A DNA stretch of 64,000 bases from Oligoflexales bacterium (GTDB lineage Bacteria > Bdellovibrionota_B > Oligoflexia > Oligoflexales > Bog-1112), in the NCBI GenBank assembly GCA_045105515.1, contig JBGCDR010000131.1, positions 12,858 through 76,857 on the forward strand. Reading direction: 5' to 3'. The translations under genes were made by a program, and so were the position numbers. Positions 21,837 to 55,729 of this stretch are shown one piece after another; positions within the stretch are counted from its first letter, which is position 1; each line of letters starts with the position of its first letter. The notes beneath the pieces were generated by a model. It did not search any database, was not told the origin of the DNA, and saw only the letters and a list, made by a program, of their open reading frames with translations.

Positions 21837-21951
21837 ATGGCGAAACAAGTAGTCAGTCAGGATTGAGATATAGAGTTATAATGAGCAATATCAACTGATT
21901 GTGTCATTTTTCTGAAATGGGTACCCACTTGCATTCCATAAGCAACCCACA

Positions 21952-24203: not shown

Positions 24204-24212
24204 ACATCACAC

Positions 24213-25739: not shown

Positions 25740-25747
25740 AATGCCTC

Positions 25748-27927: not shown

Positions 27928-29595
27928 GTCGCTGGTGCGTAATATAAAATATTTTAAATAGATAAACGTGGATCGCGGAGATTTTGTAATGGCTACAAAT
28001 AGGGGTTTTTAAAAAAAGTACTTAATTAAATTCAAATATTGTGCTGCATCTATAGAGATGGAAAATAACATAAAGCACCAAAATTATGAGTATCTCTCGT
28101 CTAGGTTTAAACGACAAGACCGAAACTTCTGCAATAACAATTTTTCCCAGCAGCAATCATCCTCTGATCAAGATAGCGCAGATTATTCCTTGGGGGGAGA
28201 TGGGAGAAATCGTTATTGCAGATCTAAAAAAGACTACCAAAAAAGGTTTTTAAACCTTGGCAACAAGCTCTACCTACGGGTTCATTTAGCCCTTTACCTT
28301 TTGCAGAAGATGACCGACAAAACCGATCGAGCACTCGAATGGGAAGTCAACGACAATGCAGTTTATCAAATATTTTGTGGATTAAATGTAACCCCCTTAA
28401 AACGGTGTCCCGATCATACGAATATCCAAAGATTTCGCTCTCGATTAAGTCCAGAAATTCAAAGAAAATTAGCCAACATGCTTCCCAAAGTTGCCACGGA
28501 ACTTGGGTTTGCAGATCCTTCAAAAGCAGATTTCGACTCAACAATACAAGAGCCAAACATGGCATATCCATCAGATGCGAATATGTTAATGCAACTTGCT
28601 GGCCATGCCCACAAATTTGCAGAATATTTCAAAAATCATATGCCAATAACCAAGAAAGTAATCAATCCTATCTTGATAAACATCAAGAAAGTAAAAGGAA
28701 AATTGAAGGAATACCTTTTTATAGCCAAGAAGAAGTCCGAAGAAAAAAAAGAAAAGTTAAAAGAGTTTATAGAGCTTGCGAGTCAAGAAATCAGCAAGGT
28801 TTCTCAAGTGCATCTAACCGAGAAATGTATGGAGCGCATGCCGCAGGGGGTTTCTCAGTCCTTCAGAAAGGTGAAAGAGCTCTCAAAAAAAATGTTCGAA
28901 CAAGCTCATTATTACTTGGAGCACGGAAAAGCCTGCAAAGACCGACTATATTCGCTACATGCAATAGCAGTTACTTGTTTCAACAAGAACAAACTCGGGA
29001 AAAAATGGCAATTTGGTCGAGCATTTCAATTGGCTCGAGTAAAGGGAAATTTTATGTTTGTAGGCAAATGTACGAATGTACTCATGACAGACAAAAGCTC
29101 TGTAATTCCAATGATAGAGGAGCATCAACGTCTTTTTGGAAAAAATCGACTCGAATCCGCCTCATGGGACAAAGGATATTTCAAGGGTACAAACAAGAAA
29201 TTTTTAGACAATTTAGAGTCCTTAAAGGACTTTGCATTACAGAAGCCTGGACAAGCTATAGAAGCTATAGATCAAAAGAAACAAGAGGCATACCTCCACC
29301 TAGTCAATCGACGATCTGGAGTGGAACCTTGTATCGGGCATGTGAAAAATGGAGGGCAATTAAAACGAAGCAGAATGAAATCCGACAAAACAACTCTCGC
29401 AGCTGGATATGGGGCTGTTACGGGATACAATCTCCGTATGTTAATCCGTCATCAGTTAGGAAAAAAAATCAGTTCAATGTAGAAAGTGACGAGATAGAAA
29501 AACATTCAGAATTAAAAAAGTGGAAAAGAAGGAGTTAAAATGAAAAGACCTTAGAAGTACTGATAATAATGGGTTTTATATTACGCACCAGCGAC
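27928..29595 (+). mobile_element. IS5-family-like insertion sequence, 1668 bp
   Basis: Perfect 22-bp terminal IR GTCGCTGGTGCGTAATATAAAA; 6-bp TSD TATATT (27922-27927, 29596-29601). Confidence 0.93.
28086..29482 (+). CDS. DDE transposase needing a -1 frameshift near 28226-28253
   Basis: N-terminus NHPLIKIAQIIPW in one frame; DSTIQE, DKGY, RRSGVEPCIGHVK in the -1 frame. Confidence 0.85.
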
Positions 29596-29681
29596 TATAT
29601 TAGGATGGTTGTGTCTCATGAAACGGTCCTTTCAGTCATTTACCTACAGCTCCACAAGATGCTTTGTTCAGATTGAGTATA

Positions 29682-32246: not shown

Positions 32247-32604
32247 GCCTACCTCCATGGATATGCCCTGGTGCTTTTTTCTTTCTGGGCTTTTTGATGA
32301 CGAGAGGCTTTAGTTTTTCAGCTACTTGCCAGTGTGACCTTGTTACAACGGTTCGAACCCATCCACCGCGAAAATAATCACCATTGGGTAGCTCATGGGG
32401 GTGCACCCAGATATCAGCGATATGAGGCTTAGTCCTAACAGGCACCAACAAGGGGTGGTCCACCTCATCAAGAGCCTCTTTGATTTGACCTACATTGTCG
32501 TAGTCTGATCGCTTTTCAAGAAGGTTAAGGCTGGGCGCTCTGTTCATCGCGCATGAGTTTAGAGCTAGGATTGCTGTGCATCCTAGTAGCTTGAAGTGAA
32601 TCAT
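32239..32604 (-). CDS. traV: TraV lipoprotein
   Basis: Lipobox LNSC; PVRT...DIWVHPHE...GDY...W pattern. Confidence 0.8.
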   Translation of the reverse strand: MIHFKLLGCTAILALNSCAMNRAPSLNLLEKRSDYDNVGQIKEALDEVDHPLLVPVRTKPHIADIWVHPHELPNGDYFRGGWVRTVVTRSHWQVAEKLKPLVIKKPRKKKAPGHIHGGRHD

Positions 32605-32613
32605 CGGTGACCC

Positions 32614-33849
32614 CTATTTTAAAAGATTGCTAAGAAATGAGATCCCACCTCGTTGGTCGAAATGGCGATTAAAATACCAATTGGGAAGAGAAACTGGCTC
32701 TTGAATGATGAGCCAAACTTCTTGGCCTGAGCCTACATTGATGGTTGGAAGGAGTTTTTCTGCATGTTTGAGATACCAGTTAGTAACTGTTGCCGCTGCG
32801 TTGCTAGCACCAGAAGCTGCTATATATCGGCCTTGGGAGCCGGTGATGTTCATCGTAGAGCCGCCATTTGAACCCATTGTCGTGGTAGTCTGGGCCTGAC
32901 TCACAGCTTTGCCGATGCCATCGACGACTGATGCCAGAAAGGCCATACTTGCCACTCTGTCCTGTTTACTATTGAGTGCACCCATCACAGCAAAGGAGTT
33001 GTCTTTGCCATCCGCAATATAGCCGCTCAACTTCCTCTCAAACGACCTCCCTGATTTAGAGACGCAAGAAATTTTGGTGGCCTGCATTTCAACCCGTTCA
33101 ATGGACATGTTGCCAGTAGACTTTGCAATAATGAAGCACCCCGACAGATCAATACGACTCTTATTTGGTCCAATAAAGGCATAATCAGCCTGAAGAAGCA
33201 CTGGGAGTGCCTTGCCTTCGGGGGCTTCAATTCCAGTGAGCAGCTTTGCTTTCACGAAGGATCCCGAAGGAAGCCTAACTCCAAGCTTGGCTGGTGTTTT
33301 ACTTGCTTGAACCGGAAAAGAAATGATTTCTGGGCCTTTTCTCTTTGTGCGCTTGCGCCTCTTTGAGGATTTCGAGGCAGAGGTGACAGTCGATGGTCCG
33401 TTAGAAACAATTGTCGTAGGAAAATTCTTCAAAGCATTTGAAAATTCTGGTGTTGAGAGAGGAGAAAGTGCTTCCCTTTGTTTAGTCCCCATATCCGTGG
33501 TAAGTGGCTCTTTATTTTCTGCTCTGGGAGTATCCCGTTTGTTAGCAAGTAATTTTTCATATTTGGCTATGATCGCTGTTATGGATTCCAGTTTTTCCTC
33601 AAGATCCTCGACCTTATCGTTGTAAATTTTGTCCTTTCTTTTGTAGAGGTCATTGTTTCTAGAAATGACCCTTCCTGAGTTGAAACTATGCTCCTTATTT
33701 TGGTATGTGATAATCTTAGTGTCATGGTGTTTGCTGAATAGATATGTAGCTAAAAGTAGTATAAATCCTAAGGCCAAGAGTAAAATACCAGGTTTCTCAC
33801 GGACTTTTAGAATCGCCTGCAGTAGGTCAGACTTATTAAGATATTTCAT
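32614..33849 (-). CDS. traB: TraB/VirB10
   Basis: TM, coiled coil, LPSGSFVKAKLLTGIEAP, GCFIIA, SIERV, ISCV. Confidence 0.88.
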   Translation of the reverse strand: MKYLNKSDLLQAILKVREKPGILLLALGFILLLATYLFSKHHDTKIITYQNKEHSFNSGRVISRNNDLYKRKDKIYNDKVEDLEEKLESITAIIAKYEKLLANKRDTPRAENKEPLTTDMGTKQREALSPLSTPEFSNALKNFPTTIVSNGPSTVTSASKSSKRRKRTKRKGPEIISFPVQASKTPAKLGVRLPSGSFVKAKLLTGIEAPEGKALPVLLQADYAFIGPNKSRIDLSGCFIIAKSTGNMSIERVEMQATKISCVSKSGRSFERKLSGYIADGKDNSFAVMGALNSKQDRVASMAFLASVVDGIGKAVSQAQTTTTMGSNGGSTMNITGSQGRYIAASGASNAAATVTNWYLKHAEKLLPTINVGSGQEVWLIIQEPVSLPNWYFNRHFDQRGGISFLSNLLK

Positions 33850-33858
33850 GATGACCTC

Positions 33859-34641
33859 TTACTTACTATTTGTGATAGGAGCTACAGGTAAACTGATGGA
33901 ATAGTAAACCGAAGTGGGCTTGGCTACGATTCGCAATAGTGTCGAATTGAGCTGAGGCTCTTGTTTTTGCTTTGGGTAAAGGATATTGGAATCAGATTGC
34001 GATAATAAGGCTACATTGGGTCTCCCCAAGGTAAGACTCTTGACATCAAGGGCATAGGTTTTGTCTTTGCTGTTGTTGGTCACTTTAAAAATATACCCGT
34101 GGAACTTTGGTCCAGTGTAAACCTTTACTAAACGAGCGGTAATACCATCAATTCCAGTCCTAACCGTTTGACTAAGAGTGCGTGCTTTGTAGCCAATGAC
34201 GCGATCCACTCGGATCATAGCCTTCATCAACTCGACCTCGGAAACACTGCCTCCTCGACTCGATCTTGCAATAGGATCAATGCGGAGGCTTTTGGCCTTG
34301 AGATCATAGAAAGTATTGGTTGTTTCATGAAGTTTAGAAACTACTGTGTTGAGCTTGGCATTGACCACCACATCATTTGCTAAGATGAAAGTAACGTTAC
34401 TACGAGCCTTCTTTGAACGAGGCTTAATGGAAAGGATTCGGTAATCTGGCTTATTGGGATCTGCTGGCTTGATCTCAAATTTACTGGCCTGGGTGATCGT
34501 CTTAACTTCCTCGTCAAAGCGAAGAAGCGTCGAAACTCCATAGGATATACTGATATTTTCCCTTTCAGAACCATAGTAAATAGTTTTTGCTTGAACCGAG
34601 GAACAGAGCAGCATTGCTAGTAACGGAATGACTTTTGTCAT
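33859..34641 (-). CDS. traK: TraK-like secretin/VirB9-like protein
   Basis: Signal peptide; lies between traE and traB; LMKAMI motif. Confidence 0.7.
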   Translation of the reverse strand: MTKVIPLLAMLLCSSVQAKTIYYGSERENISISYGVSTLLRFDEEVKTITQASKFEIKPADPNKPDYRILSIKPRSKKARSNVTFILANDVVVNAKLNTVVSKLHETTNTFYDLKAKSLRIDPIARSSRGGSVSEVELMKAMIRVDRVIGYKARTLSQTVRTGIDGITARLVKVYTGPKFHGYIFKVTNNSKDKTYALDVKSLTLGRPNVALLSQSDSNILYPKQKQEPQLNSTLLRIVAKPTSVYYSISLPVAPITNSK

Positions 34642-34653
34642 ACCTACTCCTTA

Positions 34654-35367
34654 CTATTGAGGTTTTGAGATCGTTTTGCGGGTCTGAAAGCTTTCTAACT
34701 TAGACCAAGACAAGGAGGTTATTTGAAGATACCAGCGTTTTTCTCGATCTGGTGGCACCAACTTGATGGTCATTTCAACAACTTGATCTTCATGTCCTAG
34801 GGATTGTCCAGAAGCATAGAAATCAGCTCGAACGAATGCTGTAATAGAGTAATAGCCATCAGAATTGGAAATGATCTTCTTGCTTTTAACTCGGAAAATT
34901 TGTGCTAGATCTTCATGCTTTGTCTGCTGAATCCACTCCTTGGAATCGGCAGCAAACTGAATTTTGAGTTCAGGACTCATGAACCGCTTCAAGGACTCAT
35001 ATTGTTCCGTGATGATATGGGCATTGATATTTCCAAGGGTGCTCAAGAAATCATTCACAGCATCGTTGACATACGAATCTGGCACAGACTGAGGAGTAGC
35101 TGTAGTAAAATCCAGAACCCCAGGGGCTAAAATGTATTCCTTTACCCGTAACTGTTTGTATAGTGATGATATTTCCATCCTTGAAATTGCAAAATAGCCA
35201 ATAAAGAGCAGAGCCAGCAGACCCAGGAGGTAAGTGAGGATAAGCTTTTCTCGAAGAAGTGCTGCTCGATAAGAAATGTACTTAGGTAATGATTGAAAAT
35301 TGGTCTTTGATTTGTTTGGTGGATCGCTTGTTTGTTTATGGAAGTTTTTTTCTTTTGGTCCAATCAT
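34654..35367 (-). CDS. traE: TraE/VirB8-like protein
   Basis: Single TM followed by NTF2-like region; synteny. Confidence 0.65.
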   Translation of the reverse strand: MIGPKEKNFHKQTSDPPNKSKTNFQSLPKYISYRAALLREKLILTYLLGLLALLFIGYFAISRMEISSLYKQLRVKEYILAPGVLDFTTATPQSVPDSYVNDAVNDFLSTLGNINAHIITEQYESLKRFMSPELKIQFAADSKEWIQQTKHEDLAQIFRVKSKKIISNSDGYYSITAFVRADFYASGQSLGHEDQVVEMTIKLVPPDREKRWYLQITSLSWSKLESFQTRKTISKPQ

Positions 35368-35375
35368 TTAGGCTC

Positions 35376-35687
35376 CTAATCTGAGTATTTTTTCTTTCCC
35401 CCTGGATTGATAATACCGGGAAGATTCATTCCAAAATTCTTGTAGGGGTAGTGAAAGTAGATCCCTTTTTTGTTTCGTCTTCTGACATAGGGGCCGACAC
35501 CTAACGTAAAGATCATTGATAGCAGCATCAGCTGCCAGGAATTGATGACGATGCCAAATAACAACAATGCCGCTAGGGCGGCGAAGACTTCCCCAAGTTC
35601 GAAATAATCAAAGACTGTTATGGGCTTGTCGACAGTTTGTGATACTTTCGTGGAGTACTTCTGCCTCATTGAATCGTAGTTATGCAT
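35376..35687 (-). CDS. traL: TraL/VirB3-like protein
   Basis: VDKPITV...ELGE, two TMs, ~100 aa; synteny. Confidence 0.7.
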   Translation of the reverse strand: MHNYDSMRQKYSTKVSQTVDKPITVFDYFELGEVFAALAALLLFGIVINSWQLMLLSMIFTLGVGPYVRRRNKKGIYFHYPYKNFGMNLPGIINPGGKKKYSD

Positions 35688-35841
35688 TTAATCTCCTGTA
35701 CGGGAATGGGATCCTCCATGTATTTATATGGGCATCTTTCTGGCTCTTGAAAAGCTTGAGTAGACGTGGTTTAGTTTAAAATTGGTTTAAACGATTGCGG
35801 TGAAGTTTTTGCCAGAAAACACTGCCGATGGGTGAGCAAAC

Positions 35842-36822
35842 ATGAAAAAAAAGTTTTTAGGCGTTAGCTATTTTGTGCTTTTTGGGCTTGTTGCAGCATA
35901 TGCATTTGAGCGATGGGCGGTGCGATCAGAACTTGAAACATTAAAAGTAAAAGGGGAACTGATTAAAGTTGAGGGTGCTTCGATGCATATTCAATGTCTT
36001 GGATCTGGGAGTCCAACAATAATTCTTGAGTCAGGACTGGGTTCTGACATGACATCTTGGGATAATATAGTTGGTCCAGTTAGCAAAATGACAAGAGTTT
36101 GCAGGTATGATAGGTCTGGGTATGGTTTAAGTGAAGCCAATCCTTCAGAAGCAACGATCGAGAATCAATCTCATCGTTTAAAAGAGCTTTTAAATGCTGC
36201 TAGCATAAAGGGACCCAAGATTCTAGTCGGTCACTCGGCCGGAGGACTCTACGCTCGTCATTTTGCTACGCTCGAACCAGCTGTTGTCGGTATGGTTCTC
36301 GTTGATGCTTCTGCAAGCCTTTCAAAAGAAGACTTCGAAAAATTTTTCACAATACCAACTTCTTCCAAGATCAAAGGAAGACTTAATTTGATTGCCTCAA
36401 AGTTTGCATTAATCAGAGTGAAAAGTTGGTTTTTACCCAACCCTAAAGATATTCATCCAAAATGGTATCCAAATCAGAACATCTTTAGCAGTCGATACAT
36501 TGAAGCTTTGTTTCAAGATGACAATATTTACTTAAGCGTTCTATCCGCACCAGAGCCAGATCTTCACAATATTCCAATCGTAGTGATCTCAAGAGGGAAG
36601 AACATGATGAATAATGGCTCAAAAAAGAGCGTATTTGATATTGCTTGGGATGGTTGGCAAAAAAAACTACTCAATCTTTCATCGCATAGTTCGCAAATTA
36701 TTGCTGAAGAGAGTGGGCATGGGATTCAAGACAATCAACCCGAACTCATAGTAAATGCGATAGAGAGCCTTCTGAAAGAGGGTGCAACACCTCCAAGAGC
36801 GATAAACCACTTGAATCCTTGA
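35842..36822 (+). CDS. Alpha/beta hydrolase (cargo within tra operon)
   Basis: ESGLG, YDRSGYG, GHSAGG nucleophile elbow, SGHGIQ. Confidence 0.88.
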   Translation: MKKKFLGVSYFVLFGLVAAYAFERWAVRSELETLKVKGELIKVEGASMHIQCLGSGSPTIILESGLGSDMTSWDNIVGPVSKMTRVCRYDRSGYGLSEANPSEATIENQSHRLKELLNAASIKGPKILVGHSAGGLYARHFATLEPAVVGMVLVDASASLSKEDFEKFFTIPTSSKIKGRLNLIASKFALIRVKSWFLPNPKDIHPKWYPNQNIFSSRYIEALFQDDNIYLSVLSAPEPDLHNIPIVVISRGKNMMNNGSKKSVFDIAWDGWQKKLLNLSSHSSQIIAEESGHGIQDNQPELIVNAIESLLKEGATPPRAINHLNP

Positions 36823-36847
36823 GATCAAATAAGAAAGAAGAAATGGC

Positions 36848-37345
36848 ATGGAAATAAGATTAGAAAATAGTGGCGATCATGAATCCATTCGAAATGTGAA
36901 TGACAACGCTTTTGAAACATCCTCAGAATCTGAAATCGTGGACAAACTACGATCTTTAGGTGAATTGTTACTGTCTTTGGTAGCAGTAGTTGATGGTGAA
37001 ATTGTGGGTCATATAGCATTTAGCCCCATGAATATGAATGGTTTCAAGACGAAGTTTGTTGGACTCGGGCCAATGGCTGTTATCAGATCCCAACAGCGTT
37101 ATGGAGTCGGATCCGCACTTGTAAAGGAAGGGATCAAAAATCTTAAGGAGCAGGGGTATTCAGCTGCTTTTGTGTTGGGGCATCCAGAATACTATCCTCG
37201 TTTCGGTTTTAAGCCTTCTTTTTCAAATTTTGAAATAAAGTCTAAGTACGATGTTCCTGATAACGTATTTATGGCATTTGAACTACAAGAGGGTGCCCTC
37301 TCGGGAGTATCTGGACTGGTTCAATACTCCAAAGCCTTTGGATGA
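36848..37345 (+). CDS. GNAT N-acetyltransferase (YhbS-like)
   Basis: VGHIAFSP, GLGPMAV, QRYGVGSAL, VLGHPEYYPRFGF. Confidence 0.9.
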   Translation: MEIRLENSGDHESIRNVNDNAFETSSESEIVDKLRSLGELLLSLVAVVDGEIVGHIAFSPMNMNGFKTKFVGLGPMAVIRSQQRYGVGSALVKEGIKNLKEQGYSAAFVLGHPEYYPRFGFKPSFSNFEIKSKYDVPDNVFMAFELQEGALSGVSGLVQYSKAFG

Positions 37346-37386
37346 CAATTACTTATTGAGCGGACGAAAAGCATACAGAATGAATC

Positions 37387-37760
37387 CTATTTCATGCTGT
37401 GGAAAATAGACCCTCCTCCTCCATCTGACATATCAAAGATGTTTTTAATCCACATAGGGACCGTTCCCATGATGATGGCTCCCATGATGCAAACGATGGC
37501 CATTGCAAAGCGCTGTTCCTTGAGGTTCCATCCAGCGCCAAGAATAGCCATGCCTGCTAAGATCCTGGCACCAAATTTAAAGAGAAAGCTGTCTACGATA
37601 TGAAGGAGCGTCCCGGCTGCGGTCAGCTTACTAATGTCATCGGACCCAGGAATCGTGCCAGCAGCTAAGGCAATACCTGCATGGAGAAGTCCAAAGATAA
37701 AGATCATAGTTAAGGATGGAAACGACCATCCTAACGAAGGAATTTTTTTTTTTTTGCCAT
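37387..37760 (-). CDS. traA: Conjugative pilin (TraA/VirB2-like) whose leader is frameshifted at an A13 tract
   Basis: ALA|AG cleavage-like site and two hydrophobic helices; RBS-bearing ATG 37760 is out of frame unless the A-run is 11 or 14. Confidence 0.7.
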
Positions 37761-37769
37761 AGGGCGCTC

Positions 37770-38498
37770 CTATTTGGTTGATAAAGTATTAAGAATGCTC
37801 TTGGCTTTTTGGTATCCATTGATTCGATAGACTAGCTTTTTGCTAGTATCAGCCACAAAGAGCACAGGCCAGGAATTGATCTTCTTTCTAGAAATTTCCT
37901 GAGCACTCGCTTTGACCACCGCAAATGGAACTGGAAAATTGGGTTTCTTGCTGTCGATTTGCCTTACTTCTACGAAGTAGCCCATTTTTTGTAAATCTCT
38001 TGCTGTAACCATCATCCGTTCACAATGAGGACAGGTAGAATCGAAATAGAGGCGAAATCTAAAACGTTTAAGATCCAAATCTATGGGTTTTATTTTGCTT
38101 AATTTTTCAGTAAGGATTTCTCTTTCTTTTGGTTTGAGAGTCTTTGAATTTTTGGCCAAGTATGTTTTCATGTGATCGTGAAGCTTTACCATCAGAGTGT
38201 TCTTCTTCTCAATCAAGGCAAACCAACGCTTGATATTCTGATCAGTTGGATTTCTTGCCAATTCCATAAACGGTTTAGGTGGTTTATGATCTCCTTCCTC
38301 AAAAAATTCGTCGTGCTTAGGGTTGGTGTATTTTTCCCAGTCAAATTGCTTTTCTTGTGGTATCTTTGGCTCTATCTTAGTCGGTGACGGTTTGGCTGAT
38401 GTTTTTTCATTCCAATAGTCAATTCTTCCTCCAAAATAGTCAAAGCCCAGAGCCGTAGAACAAAAAAGCAGCATTACAATGAGCCATGGTCTTCGCAT
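37770..38498 (-). CDS. Periplasmic thioredoxin-fold protein (TraF/TrbB-like)
   Basis: Signal peptide; YFDSTCPHC; SWPVLF. Confidence 0.7.
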   Translation of the reverse strand: MRRPWLIVMLLFCSTALGFDYFGGRIDYWNEKTSAKPSPTKIEPKIPQEKQFDWEKYTNPKHDEFFEEGDHKPPKPFMELARNPTDQNIKRWFALIEKKNTLMVKLHDHMKTYLAKNSKTLKPKEREILTEKLSKIKPIDLDLKRFRFRLYFDSTCPHCERMMVTARDLQKMGYFVEVRQIDSKKPNFPVPFAVVKASAQEISRKKINSWPVLFVADTSKKLVYRINGYQKAKSILNTLSTK

Positions 38499-38512
38499 AT
38501 TTCCCCCTTTTG

Positions 38513-40033
38513 CTAGGTAATTGCTTCAATTTCACTTTCATCAATGACTCCTTTCTGGGCAAGAGCAATACACTCATCCTTCAAGGTTGTAGGCATTCTT
38601 TTGTCTCCTAAGTCTGATTTTTCCAGATATTCAATGATTGCTATACGCCCTGTGATTCCCCCAGTGCATTGCACGCATCCATCAGGATTTGCTCGAAATA
38701 GCCCATTTTCTAATTTTATCCTGCATTTTGGACAAATGCGTCGAACAAGGCGTTGTGCAACCGATAGGCGTAGATTGGTTTTGATCGTAAATTCGTCAAC
38801 ACCAAGGTTAAGCAAGCGATCCACAACTTCCCTGGCTCCATTTGCGTGAACTGTGGAGAGGACCAAGTGGCCTGTTGAAGCGAGTTTCATGCTGAGATCT
38901 GCTGTTTCTTCATCTCTTATCTCTCCTAGAAGGATAATATCTGGATCTTGGCGCATAAGTGCTTTTTGAAAGTCATTGAAGTCCTCCTTAGTTTCTACAT
39001 TTGATTGGGTGATGCGTTCTAGACTCTTTTCGACTGGGTTTTCTAGAGTTGAAATGTTTTTACCGAGTCGATCCATTTCTTCTAGCAGTGCATATAGGGT
39101 CGTTGTTTTTCCACTTCCCGTCGGGCCAGAAATGATGATCAAACCTTCTCGTTTTAGAATGTTGCACTTGAGCATCTCGATTTTATCTTTACTTAAGCCA
39201 ATATCTTGCAAGCTCAATTTTTGTTCCTGGTACTGGATGCGTAATACGATCTTTTCACTGCCACCTGCTGTGGGCATAGAATTTGCCCGCACATCGATGG
39301 CCATGGACTTAAAACATGCCCTCGCATCTTGAGGTTTTGAAATAATTGCTAGGTCCAGGTTTAGTATCCATTTGAGTTTGTTGGTGATTGGTTCAGTGTG
39401 TTCAGCCTCTATGACCTTCCAGTCTTGTAGCGCTCCATGGGTACGAAACCGGATTAGGAATTTATCTGCAAATGGTTCGAAATGAATATCACTGGCCTTT
39501 AGTTTGCAGGCAGCTATAAAGCACTGATGAATGAGCTGTGTGTAAGGGTTTTCTTCAGAAATTCTTTGGTCACAAGTTAGATCACCCGCAAGGACGATGT
39601 TTGATTTTTGTTTCTTATCGTCATGATTCTCTCCCTGTAAAAGTCGAAATACAGACCCTTTGACCCTAAGAAGGGTCACTTCTAGCTCGAAGAATGCCTC
39701 AACAGACTGAATAGTCACATCCGAAAAATGATCAGCTACTAGAGTTAACCTCCTTGTGGTTAAATCAATTGCTATAACGTTGAACGGATTCAACTGTTCT
39801 TGAAGCGTTAAAGGTACTTTGGACTTCTCTGTCTCCAGTTCTTTGAATGATTTGTTGCACTCTGGCTTAATGAACTGAATCAATAGACTGTCGAGGGTTT
39901 GTTGATTTATGTAGCCCAATTCGACCATCAGCCTACCAACCTTCTCTTTGCGGTACTGATAGATCTTTAGGATAGTTCGCAGTTGCTCTTTTGTGCAATG
40001 ATGTTTTGAATGAACGAATTCAGCAAATTTCAT
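38513..40033 (-). CDS. GspE/PilB-family secretion ATPase
   Basis: KVGRLMVELGYI (MshEN-like), ASDIHFEP, GPTGSGKTTT, LENPVE, MRQDPDIILLGEIRD, TGHLVLSTVH, CPKC...CVQC. Confidence 0.92.
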   Translation of the reverse strand: MKFAEFVHSKHHCTKEQLRTILKIYQYRKEKVGRLMVELGYINQQTLDSLLIQFIKPECNKSFKELETEKSKVPLTLQEQLNPFNVIAIDLTTRRLTLVADHFSDVTIQSVEAFFELEVTLLRVKGSVFRLLQGENHDDKKQKSNIVLAGDLTCDQRISEENPYTQLIHQCFIAACKLKASDIHFEPFADKFLIRFRTHGALQDWKVIEAEHTEPITNKLKWILNLDLAIISKPQDARACFKSMAIDVRANSMPTAGGSEKIVLRIQYQEQKLSLQDIGLSKDKIEMLKCNILKREGLIIISGPTGSGKTTTLYALLEEMDRLGKNISTLENPVEKSLERITQSNVETKEDFNDFQKALMRQDPDIILLGEIRDEETADLSMKLASTGHLVLSTVHANGAREVVDRLLNLGVDEFTIKTNLRLSVAQRLVRRICPKCRIKLENGLFRANPDGCVQCTGGITGRIAIIEYLEKSDLGDKRMPTTLKDECIALAQKGVIDESEIEAIT

Positions 40034-41061
40034 CAAAAACCCCTGCATGCTGCTTTAATTCCGGCCAACCATAGATAGGCAAGACCACCAGTTCCTGCAT
40101 CAATGGTGCAATTGGAGCGTTGCCAAACAACATATAGGAACTTAGTGGGTTTACCTGAGAACCTTCCTAGTTCATTGACAGCATTGACTCTCAATACAGC
40201 AATATTTTGTCCCTCCTTAAAACTGCTCGATAACTGTGGATAGATCATTTGCCATTTGTCACTCCAGTTACTGGAAACGCTTCGAAAGACATCACCCCCA
40301 AGGCTTTTTATTCTAGAAGCAATCATCAGCGATGCTGTGGTTTGATCAGAGGATATGGTGGTTCCGGTTCTGGGTAGGTGAATGCCCCAACCTGTGCATA
40401 CAGGTGCATCTGTTGGCGGATACTTCCACATGCGACCCATCCATGGGTTTGAGCACATGGGTTCGATGCCACCACCGGTTACTCCCCAGTGCCCAGTAGC
40501 AGAAGAAGCGGCCCCCTTTAACAAACATGCCTTGGGGCTGGCTGCCCAGGCTTTGAATTGAGGATGCCACATATCAGCAAAACCAGTACGCCAGTTACTA
40601 CTTAAATGCTCGCTTGCTGCTGAGAAGCAGAACAGATCGGGCACCCCACCGCCACAGGGGAGCCCTGCAAAGACTTCCTGAGTGAATGGAACATTGATGA
40701 CGTGGGCATGGTAGGAGAAGGCTCCGTTATCGCTCTCAGCAGCAAAGGGAAGCCATCCCCCCATACGCTTCAATTGGAAATTGACTCCCGGCAATCCATA
40801 AAACATGGTTTCTCTGGGATGATTAACAACCTCAATAAAATATTTCGGCAAATTATAGCTTACATGAGCACAAGGCCATGGTGGTAAAGGAAACGGGCTT
40901 GGGCACATAGCAAACTTAACTCGGAGACCAAATTCGCGGCTAAATAATGGAGTATTAACCACGTCACAAACATTAGGAAAATTAAAGGCACTTGTCAGCG
41001 TGCTAATGTTTAACAAACCTACAATGGCACCGACTCTCGCTAACCTGCTTTTTAAGGGCAT
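40033..41061 (-). CDS. TraU-like Cys-rich periplasmic protein
   Basis: Signal peptide, many Cys, CTGWGIHLPRTG, KWQMIYP. Confidence 0.6.
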   Translation of the reverse strand: MPLKSRLARVGAIVGLLNISTLTSAFNFPNVCDVVNTPLFSREFGLRVKFAMCPSPFPLPPWPCAHVSYNLPKYFIEVVNHPRETMFYGLPGVNFQLKRMGGWLPFAAESDNGAFSYHAHVINVPFTQEVFAGLPCGGGVPDLFCFSAASEHLSSNWRTGFADMWHPQFKAWAASPKACLLKGAASSATGHWGVTGGGIEPMCSNPWMGRMWKYPPTDAPVCTGWGIHLPRTGTTISSDQTTASLMIASRIKSLGGDVFRSVSSNWSDKWQMIYPQLSSSFKEGQNIAVLRVNAVNELGRFSGKPTKFLYVVWQRSNCTIDAGTGGLAYLWLAGIKAACRGF

Positions 41062-49458: not shown

Positions 49459-49845
49459 ATGATAGATCATACTGGACTAAAAGTAAGCAATCCAACGGCG
49501 AGCCGCAAATTTTACGAAGAGGCCCTAGCACCTCTTGGTTATAAGATGATGATGGAAATACCCAAGGAGCATGTTGATGGCATGGTTGTCCTTGGATATG
49601 GTGTCCCTCCTAAACCAGATTTTTGGGTCGCTGAGGGGGCGCCAAATTCACCACGTTTACATGTTGCTTTTAGGGCTTCTAGCCACAAAGAAGTGGATGG
49701 ATTTTATAAAGCAGCCCTTGCAGCTGGTGGAAAAGACAATGGTGCTCCTGGTCCAAGGCCTCATTATCATGAGAACTACTACGGAGCTTTTGTGTTGGAC
49801 CCAGATGGGCATAATATCGAAGCTGTTTGTCATGAGTCTCAATAA
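49459..49845 (+). CDS. VOC/glyoxalase-family protein
   Basis: MIDHTGL, HVAFRA, GGKDNGAPG.R..Y..NYYGAFVLDPDGHNIEAVC. Confidence 0.93.
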   Translation: MIDHTGLKVSNPTASRKFYEEALAPLGYKMMMEIPKEHVDGMVVLGYGVPPKPDFWVAEGAPNSPRLHVAFRASSHKEVDGFYKAALAAGGKDNGAPGPRPHYHENYYGAFVLDPDGHNIEAVCHESQ

Positions 49846-51639
49846 AGAAAGAGCCTAGCCAAGAGGCTACTAAGACGAGATTATAAATATTTTGTGGCAT
49901 TAGACTTGACCCAGCCAAGAAGCCTTTACCATGATTAACTAATCAGTTTCTCCCATGATATTTTTTAAAACTACAACGATTAAGCTGTATGTTATGCTCA
50001 TCATATCTTTCATTTGAGTCCTTTCGCTCATTGTTAGACGCTTGGTGTATGCAGTTCCCTTTTCCGCATAGGGATGACTACCTGGAAGGATATTTCGACG
50101 GTCATTGATTTTTCCCAATAATTCCACTAGCTGCGGATGGTGTTTTGCAAAACTCTTTCCAGGGTCTAGGAAATGACCATATTTTTCTTTAAATGACACA
50201 TTATTTTTATTCTTTAAAGCTATTGCTCCTGGAATATTTTTCTGATTCAACACGACTTGAATATTATAGATTAGTAAGTGATTGAAACTGTTCATACATC
50301 CTAACCATTTGTCGCGAGATGAATCGAAACAAACATTAGCTTGCTTTAGTAAACTTACAGCATGACCATAATCAGAACCTAGTAGGGTTTTCCACTTTTT
50401 TGTTGGATCGGTTTTAAAGTGCTTCTTCAAAATGATGGAAATAGGGTCACGTTTTTTCGAAGGTGTACCACAGATGCCAAGTTCCGAGAACGTCGATGCT
50501 ACTTGTGAATTGTGAATCGCACTAGTAGGGAACGATATATTTAGACGAGCCAGATTGGAGGATAACATAATTCCTGGTTCAGGAAGACTTCTAGATAGAA
50601 AACGTTTGACTATAGGAGTCTCCTGCCCAAAATATTTATCATTTATAAGAGGAGCTAGAATCGCTTGTATCAAGGCATAATTTTCATAAAGGAGCCAGTT
50701 TGTTAAATTTGTTCCATAGATATTATCATGGCAGACAAGGAAATTATGAATACCAAGCCTTGCTGAGAACGAAACTTTTCTTTCTTTTAATAAATCGGTA
50801 GCTCTTCTTCTTAGGGTTGTGCGATCGCCTGCTGGTATATGCTCGAGGGCTACAGATAAAAATTGCCAACACTGCCCTTGGACGTAATCATAAGGACTAC
50901 TTTTGAGGTTTTCTTGGATGGCTAAAATCACGGACTTAGTCGAAATATGATTAGTTAAGAAAGAGAGAAATGCATCCACATGTTCTGGAAGAGACTGCCA
51001 GATTTTAAGAACTTTTAAACGAATTTTTGATGAAGGCATGCTGTGAAAAAGTACATATCGCAATTGTGATTTATTGATCAACATCCCAGTTTCGTTAAAA
51101 CATCGATCAAATATCTCCTCTGCTTCCCCCTTTTCTAATTCCTTTTTCGTGGATATATCACGGCTAGCTCCATCAGGACTAGGCTCGTGGTAGGAGAAGT
51201 CTGGAGCATTAGAAATATTGAGTACTTCGAATTTTTTCGATTGAGGAATTAGTCCAAGGTCTCTACAGAGGATTTCTAGGTAGACCACTGATTTTCTGGC
51301 TGCATTTTCAGTTTTCCCAAATATTCTCACATCATCGACATATCTGCAGTAAGTGGTAGCATTCATTTTTTCATCTATTGGCATTAAATAGTATTCTGCC
51401 AATAGATCTGATGTAATTGGCCCTTGTGGGATGCCATGAGATTTTCCATCACTTGTTTTTTCGCCTGTCCATCTACTTAGACATTTATAGATGAATGAAC
51501 CTAACTCATCTGTAGCCTTTCTAGGAAGTAAGCATCTAACTAAAATATCGTGAGAAATGGTGTCGTAAAATGCAGCTAGATCAAAATGAACGACCCATTT
51601 ATAGTCGAATTTGAGACGATTTTGGATTCGAGTACAATA

Positions 51640-52689
51640 GAGTCTTTGCATAATTCAGAAACTCAGTCATAGCAATGGCGCGACACTAATTTATTACTTA
51701 GTGACAATTCTTTCCTAATTTACTAAAATGACTCGAATTTTGACTGGGAGTACCAATGATAAGCTTCGAAGACATATTAGATAATCCAAAAAAATTGAAC
51801 ACAATGACAGGTGTTTGCATTGAAGAATTTGAGATAATTTTCGAAGAATTTGAGGTTGAGTTAAACCAAATCAGAAATCCTAATCGAGTGAAATCAGGTG
51901 CTCCTTCTAAATTAACGGTAAAAGAAAAATTATTGATGGTTCTTATTCATTATCGACACTATCAAAATTTTGATGTTATTGGTGTTATTTTCAATGTGGA
52001 TGGTAGTACAGTTAAACGATGGTTAGATAGCTGTGAAAGTGCTATAGAGGCCATTTTAGAAAAAAAAAACTTCTCCCATTTGATACCTCGGAATCAAGAT
52101 CCGAGCTTAAAAATGCAATTAACTCCCAGACAGAAATCTATATCGATGGCACTGAACAGCCTATAAGACGTCCTCAGAATTCAAAAGAGCAGAAAGATAA
52201 TTATTCCGGAAAAAAGAAGAAGCACACATCAAAAATTCTTATTTTGACGAATCAATCTAAAGAAATTATTGGGATGACTCCTGTTTATGTTGGAAAATCT
52301 CATGATTTCTCTATGTTTAAGAAAGAGGAAATATCCGACCTTATCCCACCTAAAACCCTTGTCTATGTTGATACTGGCTTCGAAGGTATTGATAAATTAG
52401 TAGAGAAATCTCAGGTTAGAAAACCAAAAAAGAAGCCGAAGTCAAGAAAGTTAAATGGTGGAGAACAGCATGGAAACCGAGTAATATCGAGCAAACGCAT
52501 AATTGTTGAGCATGCTATTGGTGGCTTCAAAAAATTTAAAATAACAGCAAATATATTTCGAGGCATTACAAAAACTATGGATAAAGCATTTAGAATTGCA
52601 GCTGGGCTATGGAACCTTCATTTAAAATTTAAAGCTGGAGAGCTTACTTGATAAGGCGGCGGCTTGTTTGTTGAATTATGCAAAGAGTC
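51640..52689 (+). mobile_element. IS5-family (ISL2-like) element, 1050 bp
   Basis: 18-bp IR GAGTCTTTGCATAATTCA / TGAATTATGCAAAGAGTC (1 mismatch); TA duplication at 51638-39 and 52690-91. Confidence 0.92.
51756..52651 (+). CDS. Transposase in two ORFs joined by a -1 frameshift at A10 (52060-52069)
   Basis: HTH in orfA; the -1 frame gives IDGTEQPIRRP, YSGKKKKHT, HD, VDTGF, RIIVEHAIG. Confidence 0.88.
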
Positions 52690-53225
52690 TAATATTTTTG
52701 ATAAGATTTTCGCCAATTCCGGAAAAGGAAAATGCTTTGGGTGTCTTCTATATAATTGCTATAGGTTTTTTTATCTTGAACTTGCTGACGGGAAACCTGA
52801 CATTTCTTTGCATAAAGATTCGCGATCGCTTGTAAAACGATTTGATCCTCTAATGTCAATAGAGTGATTGGACGTTGAAGCCCAGAAGGTTTAGGTATGT
52901 AAATTCGTGTTGGCTTGCTAGGTTCGTAGCTTCGAGTTTTAATAGCTATACTTAGATTTGAGATGTGATCACTTAATGCAATCTCATATATGCCATATTG
53001 TTCACGAAAGTATTTTTTATACTGATGGTTAAGCCCCGTAGAAATCCGTTGCCAAGCTAATTCCAGATTTTTTTTTGAGCCGAGATTCGACAAATCCATG
53101 TGTCTTTAATTTCCTTTTTTTGTTTGATTAATTTATCGGAAAAAATGAATGAATATTTAGCAGATTACAAGATTGGTGGCCCTTTTGTCATTTTGATGTC
53201 AGCAGGTGTGGCACCAATAAAGAAC

Positions 53226-53247
53226 AGTCTAGCCAAGGGGCTAGACT
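53226..53247 (-). terminator. Hairpin downstream of the primase gene
   Basis: AGTCTAGCC-AAGG-GGCTAGACT followed on the minus strand by GTTCTTTATT. Confidence 0.5.
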
Positions 53248-53308: not shown

Positions 53309-55606
53309 CTATACCAACCTTAGACTGGGGTGCAAGCGCACCACCTCAAATCGACGCCCTGTTGGCGGAGACATGACTTCTACCCTGGCCCAGCCATATC
53401 GTTGCAGCGTTTTCAAAGCACCATCAAGCTCCTTCATCGAAGCTAAATTCTTCCATCCATGGCGATAAACGTCGCGACAACGATCAAAGTCTCGAACAGC
53501 GCCAGATTTGATTCTTTCGAGTAATTTGCGCCCAGACACTACTTCAGGTTCTAGATACTCGCCATATGCTTTGCAGGCGTGCAGCTCCAAGAATTCGCAC
53601 CAGCGGATGGCAAGCTGAGTTGAATCTTTGGAAATTTCCTCGGGATAGTCACTGGAGTCCTCTAGGTGAGTCATCATTTCAAAGATCAGCGCCAGGCTAG
53701 GCATAAGGGAGCGGTATTTAGACAAGTGATTTTCCATAATTGAGGACCCTGTGGCCGATAAAAGTCGGATTTCGAGCCCTTCATGCCATGCGTCTGCGAT
53801 CGTTTGACCGTCTGCTGAAAACCGTATTTTGTGGCGCTTTGTTTCATCATCAACTCTTTCAGGTAATGGCAAATCAGCAAGCTTTGCAAAAGTCCTCTCC
53901 ACTAGCTCAGCTGCGGCGTTGTTGGGAGCTCGGTCAATACGCTTCCAGTATTTGCGCTTCTCTGGACACAAAAGGATCTGAAAGCGTTGCAGTAGCCCGT
54001 CATCGCTCTTCCCTCCCTTTGCTAGGGCTGCAACATAGGATTCAAATTTGGTGGGTTGTAGACCCCCTAGAACCGACAAGCAAAGCCCATCTACGAACAC
54101 AGTTCCTCGGCCAATACGATCCATGCTGTAAGGTGAGTCACCATTCCAGGATTCGAGGAAGAATTCGCGGTCACCTTCCCTGCCTGATTTGAACATGGTT
54201 TCCATCCAACCACTAAGTTCATCGCGGTACAAAAGCAAACCTTGGGGATTTTCCTGGAGGATTGTGAGCATTTTTTCAATCGTTGGGTCATTCATCATGT
54301 AGCGACGCTCAGTTACTTCAAAGTTATCTTCAAATGCCTTTAATGCCTTTTCTAAAGCTTCTTTTTTCTCTCCAATAGCAGTTTGATTCCCTCCTTTGAC
54401 TGCCGATTTAAGGGCATCTTTAAGAGCATCAATCTCAGCTTTGGCTACTGTTTTTTCGGCTTCAACTCGCTTACTCTCTTGCAAAAAATCCTCTCGTGCT
54501 TTCACTGCAAGATTCTGTAATGGGCGCAATATGGCAGCCATAGCAGGTGATTTCATCGATCCAGGAGGAGCAATAAGACAACCCCATAAATTTGGAATGA
54601 CCTTCCAATCGTCTTTTGTTTTAGGGTAAATCGCTACTTTGCGACCAATGACAGAGGATAATGTTACAATTGCTGGTCCTGCTACAAATTCAAGAGGCAC
54701 CTGCATACGCTCTGAAATATCACTGCACCAGGCTCTTAGCGACGTTGGTAACATTTCGAGATTCATTTCTGGTGCAACAACCTCACTAGGAAGTGAACAT
54801 GGCTCCTTCCAGTTTTTCTCTTGGTAGCGACCAATACTATTACTTATTTGTTGAACCTCTGCTTCAGATAGTGGTGGTTGACATAGATTTTGGTTGATGG
54901 CTCCCAGAGTTGAGGTAATTGAACCAGAACCAAATCCCTTAGATTTTAAAAAACCACCTATACTCATGAGCGATGCATTGCGTCCTCCTTCGGCAAAAGT
55001 TTCTTTGCTTGGTATTGCAAGCTTTTTGGGATTGGGGTTGCCTAAAATCAGAGATAAAAGCCAGGCTGGTAAATCAGCAATGTTAGTATCTTCAGAGACC
55101 CATGAATAGGTGGCCTGACTAGCATGAACACTTGGTGGTGCTACGATGTAGCCACCATCTCCCCGCACATCAACACCGGGTTTTAAGTTGGTCTTGTTGG
55201 GTATTTTTCCTCCTGGGTGACGGAAGTAGTAGTGCCAACCATCACCGCCCGTTTTTACCTTGAGGGTTTCGGGTAGCTCACCAAACTCTGCTTCAAGCTC
55301 CTTCAGTGATTGGTTACCTCCGTGTCTAGGGTCAATATCAATCACTACCAAACCTGATTCCGAGCCGGTGAGAATACCAATATTTGCTGCAGGACTTTCC
55401 CTCCACCAGTTCAAAACTGTAGCCGCTCCCAGGGTTGCGTTTTTGAGGCCATTGGGGGTCATTGGGTGTTTTGCAATACTACTGCAGCTTGGTTTTCTGC
55501 AACTGCACTGGCCGTCTGTTACAGGGTAGTGGAGAGGGAGTACCGGCCACCCCTTCCCAGCGAATTTTGAAGCCCACTCTGCATTAGTTTTCATGGAATC
55601 TTGCAT
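53309..55606 (-). CDS. Bifunctional primase-polymerase fused to PriCT-like and DUF3987 (helicase-like) domains
   Basis: GWPVLPL, AKHP, NIGILTG, VVIDIDPRHGG, HYYF, DVRGDGGYIVAPPS; EGGRN; PNLWG...PPGSMKSP, RDELSGW, DGLLQRF. Confidence 0.9.
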   Translation of the reverse strand: MQDSMKTNAEWASKFAGKGWPVLPLHYPVTDGQCSCRKPSCSSIAKHPMTPNGLKNATLGAATVLNWWRESPAANIGILTGSESGLVVIDIDPRHGGNQSLKELEAEFGELPETLKVKTGGDGWHYYFRHPGGKIPNKTNLKPGVDVRGDGGYIVAPPSVHASQATYSWVSEDTNIADLPAWLLSLILGNPNPKKLAIPSKETFAEGGRNASLMSIGGFLKSKGFGSGSITSTLGAINQNLCQPPLSEAEVQQISNSIGRYQEKNWKEPCSLPSEVVAPEMNLEMLPTSLRAWCSDISERMQVPLEFVAGPAIVTLSSVIGRKVAIYPKTKDDWKVIPNLWGCLIAPPGSMKSPAMAAILRPLQNLAVKAREDFLQESKRVEAEKTVAKAEIDALKDALKSAVKGGNQTAIGEKKEALEKALKAFEDNFEVTERRYMMNDPTIEKMLTILQENPQGLLLYRDELSGWMETMFKSGREGDREFFLESWNGDSPYSMDRIGRGTVFVDGLCLSVLGGLQPTKFESYVAALAKGGKSDDGLLQRFQILLCPEKRKYWKRIDRAPNNAAAELVERTFAKLADLPLPERVDDETKRHKIRFSADGQTIADAWHEGLEIRLLSATGSSIMENHLSKYRSLMPSLALIFEMMTHLEDSSDYPEEISKDSTQLAIRWCEFLELHACKAYGEYLEPEVVSGRKLLERIKSGAVRDFDRCRDVYRHGWKNLASMKELDGALKTLQRYGWARVEVMSPPTGRRFEVVRLHPSLRLV

Positions 55607-55729
55607 TCTTACCTCCGTTGGTGATTGCTCATCGATAATATCTAATGTGATACTATTGTCGATGCTCGCTCCACTTTCGTGAGGAGTCAAGCATCGGCCT
55701 AGAGCAATTTTTTGGGATGGAGGTATCGA

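What the first reader, a model, noticed from the sequence alone, without database searches (positions are those of the whole stretch)
49939..53099. Stand-alone ~702-aa UG/Abi-like reverse transcriptase recoverable by removing an IS
Seen: the 136-aa and 570-aa ORFs join in frame (...SYQKY-YCTRIQ...) once the 1050-bp IS and one TA are deleted. The product has intact RT motifs (PKPSGLQRP, DLAAFYD, PQG, YVDD) and a ~350-aa mostly helical C-terminus. I see no maturase/HNH, retron VTG motif, DGR TR/VR or Cas1. Known: UG/Abi RTs with helical-repeat tails (AbiK, AbiP2, several DRTs) are anti-phage and some make protein-primed or untemplated DNA. Inference: an ICE-borne defence RT of undetermined, possibly uncharacterised, type, recently inactivated. 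Automated annotation would miss it.
Basis: partly seen in the sequence, partly recalled or inferred. Interest (0 to 1): 0.75.

Follow-up and report, generated by a model that had tools for sequence, protein, structure and literature searches.

The report
IS-broken UG19 reverse transcriptase–HEPN gene
An insertion sequence has split a gene for a reverse transcriptase fused to a predicted RNase-type (HEPN) domain; the gene belongs to UG19, an already catalogued family that is predicted to protect bacteria from phages and that I found untested in the papers searched, so this is a broken specimen of a known kind, not a new kind.

Summary
An IS5-family element splits one RT gene into 136-aa and 570-aa pieces. 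Both pieces hit PADLOC RT_UG19 best, end to end, and 82 of 85 homologues, mostly about 700 aa, match both. The intact length is more likely 701 aa (3-bp AAT duplication, 1052-bp IS) than 702.

Its top structural match among 48,161 chains is AbiA (Z 8.7, tied with three others), and the R and H of its R-x6-H motif are each kept in 126 of 127 homologues. This is UG19-large (Mestre 2022): predicted defence, untested in my searches. I found no partner gene or ncRNA. The gene sits in a variable cargo slot of a groEL-integrated ICE in an Oligoflexales-like bacterium.

[quoted passage not shown] The scan has reported UG19 on other DNA four times. New member of a known kind; interest 0.3.

The parts
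52691..53099 (-). 5' piece of the UG19-large RT gene (residues 1-136, fingers region with PKPSGLQRP); closed by a stop codon formed at the IS end
   Evidence: PADLOC RT_UG19 profile 2-134, E 4.6e-48; homologue profile 1-137
51639..52690 (+). IS5-family insertion sequence (1052 bp with AAT duplication, favoured; or 51640-52689, 1050 bp with TA), 20-bp terminal inverted repeats
   Evidence: relatives of the element (mostly 85-99% alike) among the contigs of run X4
51756..52166 (+). IS ORF A, HTH_Tnp_4; A10 run at 52060-52069, a likely -1 frameshift site into ORF B
   Evidence: Pfam PF13613 E 5e-12; frames; frameshifting inferred
52244..52651 (+). IS ORF B, DDE_Tnp_4 catalytic part
   Evidence: Pfam PF13359 E 5e-16; NCBIfam IS5 transposase E 1.6e-9, below cut-off
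49939..51638 (-). 3' piece of the RT gene: RT palm, linker, alpha-helical repeat domain and HEPN-like domain
   Evidence: PADLOC RT_UG19 profile 135-558, E 7.7e-83; homologue profile 137-697
51331..51342 (-). YVDD catalytic motif
   Evidence: sequence; Y, D, D invariant in 75 of 75 homologues
51178..51192 (-). RT-to-helical-domain linker with Tyr and the conserved Ser (equivalent to S291 of P0004): candidate priming residue
   Evidence: Ser in 61 of 75 and 42 of 52 homologues; 13 of the 14 A1 rows without it have a Tyr four residues on; the loop beside it has the lowest pLDDT of the model; function inferred
50467..51129 (-). alpha-helical repeat (alphaRep) domain, approximate limits
   Evidence: helical run 309-527 in the AlphaFold model of homologue P0004, mean pLDDT 93.9; aligns over AbiK, DRT4, DRT6 and AbiA helical domains
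49939..50466 (-). HEPN-like C-terminal domain; R-N-x-x-P-x-S-H motif at 50074-50097
   Evidence: model of the window's own domain, pLDDT 93.7; best matches AbiA and HEPN proteins; R and H each in 126 of 127 homologues
53215..53247 (-). Terminator-like hairpin after the primase-polymerase gene; one copy of a ~30-bp direct repeat bracketing the RT gene
   Evidence: (family D2)
49840..49869 (-). Second copy of the ~30-bp repeat, terminator-like hairpin downstream of the RT gene
   Evidence: two of the three genome-wide TAGCC-N4-GGCTA sites are these two
53309..55690 (-). ICE backbone primase-polymerase/DUF3987 gene, one border of the cargo slot (context, not part of the system)
   Evidence: homologues in sister elements
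18634..41061 (.). Context: att-like site at the groEL 3' end, tyrosine integrase (18857-20272), FtsK-type ATPase and tra genes of the carrying ICE

Best explanation
This is a UG19-large gene (reverse transcriptase, helical-repeat domain and predicted HEPN domain in one ~701-residue protein) split by an IS5-family insertion and likely inactivated by it; the intact protein likely works like AbiA as a one-gene anti-phage system. Shown here: family membership, the three-domain model, the split, the ICE cargo position, and no conserved partner gene or flanking RNA among the loci examined. Inferred steps: (1) the protein dimerises through its HEPN domains; (2) the RT site makes template-free single-stranded DNA covalently primed on the conserved linker serine (a tyrosine in one clade); (3) this DNA and the helical domain engage a phage single-strand-binding or annealing protein; (4) that switches on the composite HEPN RNase site, which arrests the infected cell. 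Rough odds: family 0.95, anti-phage role 0.85, protein-primed template-free synthesis 0.75, linker serine as primer 0.5, catalytic HEPN as effector 0.5.
For: Family: RT_UG19 scores 277 and 163 bits against 121 and 66 for the next group, UG21; all six full-length relatives scanned hit UG19 best. Architecture: among the 50 listed PDB entries only AbiA (8oz7) aligns over the whole 1-702 model (502 residues, Z 19.9, rmsd 5.7). The window's own C-terminal domain matches AbiA first of 48,161 chains (Z 8.7, 143 residues, rmsd 4.6), and about a dozen HEPN-family structures follow (sacsin HEPN, AF_0298, HepT, Csm6, RnlA, LsoA). The window's motif RNILPGSH has the spacing and pattern of AbiA's RNSNPVSH (PMC11077055). 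Priming: AbiA primes on tyrosines in the flexible 290-310 loop between RT and helical domain, and DRT1 primes on a conserved serine in an unresolved segment (PMC13275509). UG19-large has a conserved Ser at this junction in 103 of 127 proteins, and 13 of the 14 A1 rows without it carry a Tyr instead. All five characterised class 1 enzymes named in the DRT4 preprint are protein-primed and template-free; DRT4 is triggered by a phage SSB and activates an RNase. AbiA and AbiK escapers mutate annealing proteins. Defence context: 34 of 70 loci have a PADLOC hit (E<=1e-10) among the two nearest ORFs on either side, such as type I/III RM, BREX, DISARM-like and Hachiman genes; Mestre et al. predicted a defence role. 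Inactivation: the IS cuts off residues 1-136, which hold invariant K28, K70 and R76, and no contig joint skips the IS in the four runs laid.
Against: No activity was measured. In AbiA the same R-x6-H motif is dispensable for defence and no RNase activity was found (PMC11077055), so conservation does not prove catalysis. The HEPN Z-scores (8.3-8.7 at the top, tied) are within the range the tool gives for common helical arrangements; Foldseek, Pfam and PDB sequence searches gave no significant HEPN hit. The RT domain alone aligns better to group II intron RT (Z 24.3) than to AbiA, AbiK or DRT4 (Z 18-20), so the loss of templating is not shown. The 13 Tyr-linker proteins are one clade, so one event, and 10 of the 52 further proteins lack the Ser. 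The neighbour count has no background control, includes weak or housekeeping-like hits (L013, L019, L026, L051, L077) and includes related genomes. The window's own neighbours are not defence genes.
Confidence: 0.5

Rival explanations
1. Strictly AbiA-like: same protein-primed, template-free polymerase, but the HEPN domain is only a dimerisation and nucleic-acid-binding module. Defence comes from the DNA product or from nucleotide drain, without RNA cleavage or cell death.
For: In AbiA, HEPN mediates dimerisation and is needed for polymerase activity, yet R581A and H588A do not affect defence and no RNA cleavage was seen (PMC11077055). AbiA is the closest whole-protein fold.
Against: R and H are each kept in 126 of 127 UG19-large proteins that are about 30-55% identical, as strictly as the RT aspartates, while neighbouring columns vary. 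UG19-small keeps the domain as a separate gene, which fits an effector better than a folding aid (inference).
Confidence: 0.3
2. The RT makes a defined product, templated by an RNA supplied in trans or within the mRNA, or by the protein itself (protein-templated synthesis has been reported for some DRTs; recalled, not read here), and this product activates the HEPN domain.
For: The RT domain aligns best to group II intron RTs (Z 24.3, rmsd 3.0, 262 residues) and keeps their finger-loop motif. Many fingers residues are invariant.
Against: No Rfam match beyond chance. The upstream 209 nt fold no better than shuffles (z -1.3), and only ~125 nt lie between terminator and start. Flanks are shared only by small sets of loci and none with the window; the one cross-phylum match appears by eye to be the start of hsdR. 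Seven intact loci have a PADLOC-identified gene ending within 56 bp of the RT start. The helical domain sits where class 1 template-free enzymes have theirs.
Confidence: 0.12
3. The gene is not dead. Either the 570-aa piece is expressed from a start and promoter inside the IS end and acts as a freed helical-HEPN protein, or the IS excises in part of the population as an on/off switch.
For: The large piece has an in-frame ATG inside the IS end and keeps the palm, helical and HEPN domains. Promoter-like sites in the IS point towards it. The transposase frames look intact.
Against: The promoter-like sites match only 9 of 12 positions and are near chance (17 found against 11.1 +/- 3.4). No joint skipping the IS was found in four runs (contigs drop rare variants, and three runs may be the source of this DNA). 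17 of 76 related loci are also split or cut short inside their contig, which fits ordinary decay, although sequencing errors were not excluded.
Confidence: 0.05
4. UG19-large is not an anti-phage system but acts against plasmids or rival elements, or as an addiction module of the ICE.
For: Here it lies in ICE cargo beside GNAT-, kinase- and glyoxalase-like genes, in a genome with at least five related elements. 36 of 70 loci have no PADLOC hit nearby.
Against: There is no antitoxin partner. It recurs inside or beside RM, BREX and DISARM-like operons across many phyla. Every tested class 1 relative named in the papers read is anti-phage.
Confidence: 0.05

Closest known systems
UG19-large (class 1 UG/Abi RT; Mestre et al. 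2022, PMC9226505; PADLOC PDLC03756 RT_UG19)
   Same: Best profile match for both pieces, end to end; RT + alphaRep + fused HEPN-like domain in one ORF; defence role predicted from gene context.
   Different: This copy is split by an IS. It is a long-branch member, at most 38% identical to any homologue over the large piece. It sits in ICE cargo and not in a defence island. The paper calls the tail an unknown domain with very distant HEPN homology; the model here supports HEPN and shows a near-invariant R-x6-H.
Lactococcus lactis AbiA (PDB 8oz7; PMC11077055)
   Same: Same three-domain order; the only listed structure aligning over the full length; same R-N-x-x-P-x-S-H motif pattern; a hydroxyl residue in the RT-helical linker.
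   Different: Only 12% identity in the structural alignment. TIGR04499 scores 28 bits against a cut-off of 250 on homologue P0004. About 700 aa against about 628. The linker residue is mostly Ser, not Tyr. The RT domain is closer to group II intron RTs. AbiA is tested and its HEPN motif is dispensable; UG19 is untested.
DRT4 (UG15), DRT6 (UG12), AbiK, Abi-P2
   Same: Class 1 RT plus alphaRep; single gene; structural alignment over residues ~10-520 (Z 16-19).
   Different: None aligns over the C-terminal HEPN region. They form trimers or hexamers. DRT4's RNase site is an HD pair at a subunit interface, not HEPN. Drt4 scores 43 bits against a cut-off of 450.
IS5 family insertion sequences (HTH_Tnp_4 + DDE_Tnp_4)
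   Same: About 1.05 kb, short terminal inverted repeats, 2-3 bp target duplication, two ORFs with an A-run.
   Different: Subgroup and exact ends were not determined; below the NCBIfam cut-off; no complete second copy was found.

Membership tests
UG19-large | RT sequence groups with UG19 | tested here: met
   PADLOC RT_UG19 best for both pieces by more than 2-fold in bits and for 6 of 6 full-length relatives; profile-based, not placed in the published tree
UG19-large | Placement in the published 5022-sequence RT tree | not tested
   The tree holds only UG19-like proteins; no reference sequences of other groups were fetched
UG19-large | alphaRep helical domain after the RT | tested here: met
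   AlphaFold model of homologue P0004 and structural alignment to AbiK, DRT4, DRT6 and AbiA; the window piece aligns to that family over the whole domain
UG19-large | HEPN-like domain fused at the C terminus (large variant) | tested here: met
   motif conservation; Z-scores moderate
UG19-large | Anti-phage activity | not testable with these tools
   Predicted only; neighbour context
AbiA | Sequence membership (TIGR04499 / PADLOC AbiA) | tested here: not met
   28.3 bits against cut-off 250 for P0004, and no listed hit for the window pieces; AbiA not among the listed top PADLOC hits
AbiA | RT + helical + HEPN architecture with R-x6-H | tested here: met
AbiA | Priming residue in the RT-helical linker | tested here: inconclusive
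   Conserved Ser, or Tyr in one clade, at this junction; residue-level equivalence to Tyr298/Tyr303 not checked because no AbiA sequence was obtained
AbiA | HEPN-mediated dimer; covalent template-free ssDNA | not tested
Group II intron RT/maturase | Family score, maturase/X domain and intron RNA | tested here: not met
   TIGR04416 74.5 and 32.7 bits against 300; only RVT_1 in Pfam; no Rfam intron match at 49700-53500
Retron RT | Family score and upstream msr-msd RNA | tested here: not met
   retron St85 27.9 bits against 235; no structured upstream RNA
Named DRTs (DRT2, 3a, 4, 5 in NCBIfam; Drt6, 8, 9 in PADLOC) | Family score | tested here: not met
   All far below cut-off or far below UG19
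Integron gene cassette | attC site downstream of the gene | tested here: inconclusive
   0 of 56 downstream flanks, including the window, matched a strict RYYYAAC...GTTRRRY pattern; a simple pattern, not a covariance model, so degenerate sites may be missed

The most novel reading that the evidence does not exclude
UG19-large is a one-protein circuit in which DNA grown on a linker serine directly gates a catalytically active HEPN RNase dimer. It would be the active-nuclease counterpart of AbiA, whose HEPN motif proved dispensable, and the priming chemistry has switched naturally from Ser to Tyr in one clade.
Probability: 0.3. Interest if true: 0.55.

Novelty: new member of a known kind. Interest (0 to 1): 0.3.

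Why it matters
The locus itself is a broken copy of a catalogued family and teaches little alone. The family matters more. UG19 is one of the class 1 RT groups for which I found no experiment, and it has AbiA's domain layout, where it is still unexplained how random DNA stops phages and why a HEPN motif is kept but dispensable. Two concrete, cheap predictions come from the alignment: a single candidate priming residue (linker Ser, with a natural Tyr variant) and a near-invariant HEPN Arg/His pair. Testing them on intact natural homologues would show whether RT-HEPN fusions couple DNA synthesis to RNA cleavage.

Tried and rejected
Partner gene: all-against-all clustering of 648 neighbour ORFs from 80 loci gave no cluster in more than 7 loci, and none included a window neighbour among the 22 clusters printed. 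The largest clusters are RM, DISARM-like and BREX genes.

ncRNA: Rfam gave one chance-level hit inside the IS. The upstream fold had z -1.33. Shared flanks were found in 8 of 1431 upstream pairs and in 9 hits among 1540 downstream pairs, none with the window. The L005/L016/L025/L029 match reads as the start of hsdR (by eye).

Integron cassette (lead from e1-6637637): 0 of 56 flanks.

IS target-duplication length from other copies: none complete among 61 relatives; the 18 metagenome matches to the repeat had no transposase; no plasmid hit. It stays unsettled by DNA evidence.

IS-free allele: no joint in four runs. No RNA holder was listed, which says nothing on expression.

Intact orthologue in the host's order: not found in 94 other genomes searched; none in plasmids at 1e-20.

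AbiA sequence for residue mapping: not found in 2 + 401 genomes, and the control did not ring.

HEPN by sequence or Foldseek: no significant hit. The Atlas gave only low-score leads (0.80-0.82), two of them RnlA/LsoA HEPN clusters.

Full report
1. Observation. The window holds two minus-strand ORFs, 52689-53099 (136 aa) and 49939-51651 (570 aa). Between them lies an element with 20-bp terminal inverted repeats (19 of 20 complementary), present once in the 6.3-Mb assembly. It encodes HTH_Tnp_4 and DDE_Tnp_4 ORFs, whose frames differ by -1 across an A10 run at 52060-52069. This is an IS5-family element; the subgroup was not determined. The two RT pieces, aligned separately, cover positions 1-137 and 137-697 of a profile built from 75 full-length homologues, and 82 of the 85 homologues are hit by both. 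The split gene is real.

Two in-frame end definitions have a multi-base duplication: 1050 bp with TA (702 aa) or 1052 bp with AAT (701 aa). The 702-aa form needs 27 residues between invariant W130 and D156. Homologues have 26 (68 of 75) or 25 (7 of 75); among 52 further full-length proteins, 46 of the 48 measurable have 26, two have no Trp in range and none has 27. I favour 701 aa. No second complete IS copy was found to confirm this. IS relatives in run X4 also show TA next to the repeats, which fits either definition.

2. Identity. PADLOC assigns both pieces to RT_UG19 (E 4.6e-48, profile 2-134; E 7.7e-83, profile 135-558), with UG21 next at E 6e-19 and 1.6e-35. Six of six full-length relatives also hit UG19 best. 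Group II intron, retron, Drt2/3a/4/5 and AbiA models score far below their cut-offs. Mestre et al. 2022 (PMC9226505; passages and sections 23 and 28 read) describe UG19-large as RT plus alphaRep with a fused unknown domain of very distant HEPN homology. They predict a defence role from individual loci and did not test it. Their supplementary tables S2 and S3 were not held (only File S1) and may already detail the HEPN call. Searches for UG19, for newer DRT numbers (where DRT11 appears in a UG5 paper; listing only) and for recent screens showed no experimental paper on UG19. The library lacks most subscription journals.

3. Anatomy. An AlphaFold model of intact homologue P0004 (mean pLDDT 93.9) has an RT domain (1-290), a low-confidence loop (about 291-302), a helical repeat region (309-527) and a separate helical bundle (540-701). 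Among the 50 listed PDB entries, only AbiA aligns over 1-702 (502 residues, Z 19.9, rmsd 5.7). AbiK, Abi-P2, DRT4 and DRT6 stop at about residue 470-525, and the RT domain alone fits group II intron RT best (Z 24.3). A model of the window's own last 175 residues (pLDDT 93.7) was aligned to 48,161 chains. AbiA came first (Z 8.7), tied with SsR10, Roquin and sacsin HEPN (8.6), followed by AF_0298, HepT, Csm6, RnlA and LsoA. These Z values are moderate for a helical bundle, and sequence searches and Foldseek gave no significant HEPN hit. The call rests on the run of HEPN proteins in the list plus the motif. The window has RNILPGSH; AbiA has RNSNPVSH (PMC11077055, passages). The Arg is kept in 75 of 75 and 51 of 52 proteins, the His in 74 of 75 and 52 of 52. 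The window pieces keep 93 of 98 columns conserved at 90% or more, all five changes conservative (homologue median 96), and have no other break. This fits recent inactivation.

4. Candidate priming site. AbiA primes on Tyr298 or Tyr303 in the flexible loop joining RT and helical domain (section 21 part 1). DRT1 primes on conserved Ser402 (PMC13275509, passages). In UG19-large a Ser lies 18 residues after the invariant K273, at the start of the same kind of loop. It is present in 61 of 75 proteins; 13 of the other 14 have a Tyr four positions on, and none has both at these columns. The Tyr set is one clade, so this is one event. In the 52 further proteins the Ser is kept in 42. The window protein has the Ser, and a Tyr four residues before it. 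This is an inference from conservation. Equivalence to AbiA's residues was not checked, because no AbiA sequence was obtained.

5. Partners and context. Eighty loci from many phyla show no recurring partner gene and no shared flanking RNA. Fifteen of 56 intact loci have a co-directional ORF ending within 60 bp of the start, seven of them PADLOC-identified genes. In the window a terminator-like hairpin at 53226-53247 leaves about 125 nt before the start, and the 209-nt region folds no better than shuffles. Of 70 loci whose nearest ORFs were scanned (236 ORFs), 34 have a PADLOC hit at E<=1e-10. The gene often sits directly after hsdS or brxL. There is no background control, and some hits are weak. 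The host is Oligoflexales-like (SerRS 93% identical to a protein named so). The gene was not found in 94 other genomes of the order. It lies in an ICE: integrase beside an att-like groEL 3' end, FtsK-type ATPase, tra genes and a primase-polymerase. In two sister elements of the same genome the primase-polymerase faces a conserved hydrolase gene across about 150 bp or one gene; here 6.6 kb of cargo, including the RT, fills that slot. A ~30-bp direct repeat containing the terminator-like hairpin brackets the RT gene, which suggests it entered as a unit (inference).

6. Mechanism. Established for relatives: class 1 enzymes (AbiK, Abi-P2, AbiA, DRT4, DRT6) make protein-primed, template-free ssDNA; DRT4 is activated by a phage SSB and then cleaves RNA (bioRxiv 10.64898/2026.10.21.760695; abstract, introduction and passages); AbiA and AbiK escapers mutate annealing proteins (PMC13064643, passages). 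I infer the same logic here, with HEPN as dimeriser and probable RNase effector (confidence 0.5). The main rival (0.3) is that HEPN is structural only, as found for AbiA, where R581A and H588A do not affect defence. Templated synthesis (0.12), a still-active split gene (0.05) and a non-phage role (0.05) are less likely. No contig joint skips the IS in the four runs laid, three of which may be the source of this DNA.

7. Verdict. A real, probably recently inactivated member of UG19-large. It works like AbiA by architecture but is not a member of the AbiA family by sequence. Earlier notes of this scan report UG19 in four findings on other DNA; they are unchecked AI notes, and my assignment was made before reading them. 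Novelty: new member of a known kind. Interest 0.3.

Noticed in passing
window 18634-18661; G000 C404:8175-8202 and C105:14144-14171: The 3' end of groEL recurs as a 28-bp att-like site on two other contigs, each next to a 62% identical integrase. The genome has five traC and five primase-polymerase copies but only one groEL, which suggests several related ICEs, possibly in tandem at groEL.
   Followed up: partly
window 46683-53308 against L105 and L106: The interval between the conserved hydrolase gene and the primase-polymerase is a variable cargo slot: about 150 bp in L106, one 289-aa gene in L105, 6.6 kb here.
   Followed up: yes
window 47200-49845 and 27274-27897: Cargo genes resembling resistance enzymes (GrpB-GNAT fusion, APH-like kinase, glyoxalase, chloramphenicol-phosphotransferase-like). 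The GNAT and the kinase score far below curated resistance-gene cut-offs.
   Followed up: partly
window 49840-49869, about 49913, and 53215-53243: A ~30-bp direct repeat with a TAGCC-N4-GGCTA hairpin brackets the RT gene; two of three such palindromes in the genome are these, and a partial third copy lies near 49913.
   Followed up: partly
L002, L007, L013, L015, L017, L026, L028, L039, L045, L047, L051, L054, L058, L062, L064, L065, L070: 17 of 76 related loci have a split or shortened UG19-large gene inside the contig, some with 1.3-1.7 kb inserts (L017, L064, L051). This could reflect frequent inactivation or long-read errors.
   Followed up: no
L016, L017, L025, L034, L064 (after hsdS); L008, L054, L066 (after brxL): UG19-large repeatedly sits directly behind hsdS in type I RM operons or behind brxL in BREX operons, within 40 bp.
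   Followed up: partly
L108:257-7744 (G000 C404): Type I RM genes, a GmrSD fusion and a DUF4062 gene lie just beyond the att-like site of a smaller sister element.
   Followed up: no
L048:9110-9934: A retron-type RT lies about 1 kb downstream of an intact UG19-large gene.
   Followed up: no
window 28058-29538: A second transposase (DUF772) interrupts the ICE transfer region.
   Followed up: no
P0085 and P0086: Longer (750 and 796 aa), distant relatives. P0085 hits RT_UG19 best and has a shorter motif with four residues between the second Arg and the His; they form a separate deep branch.
   Followed up: partly
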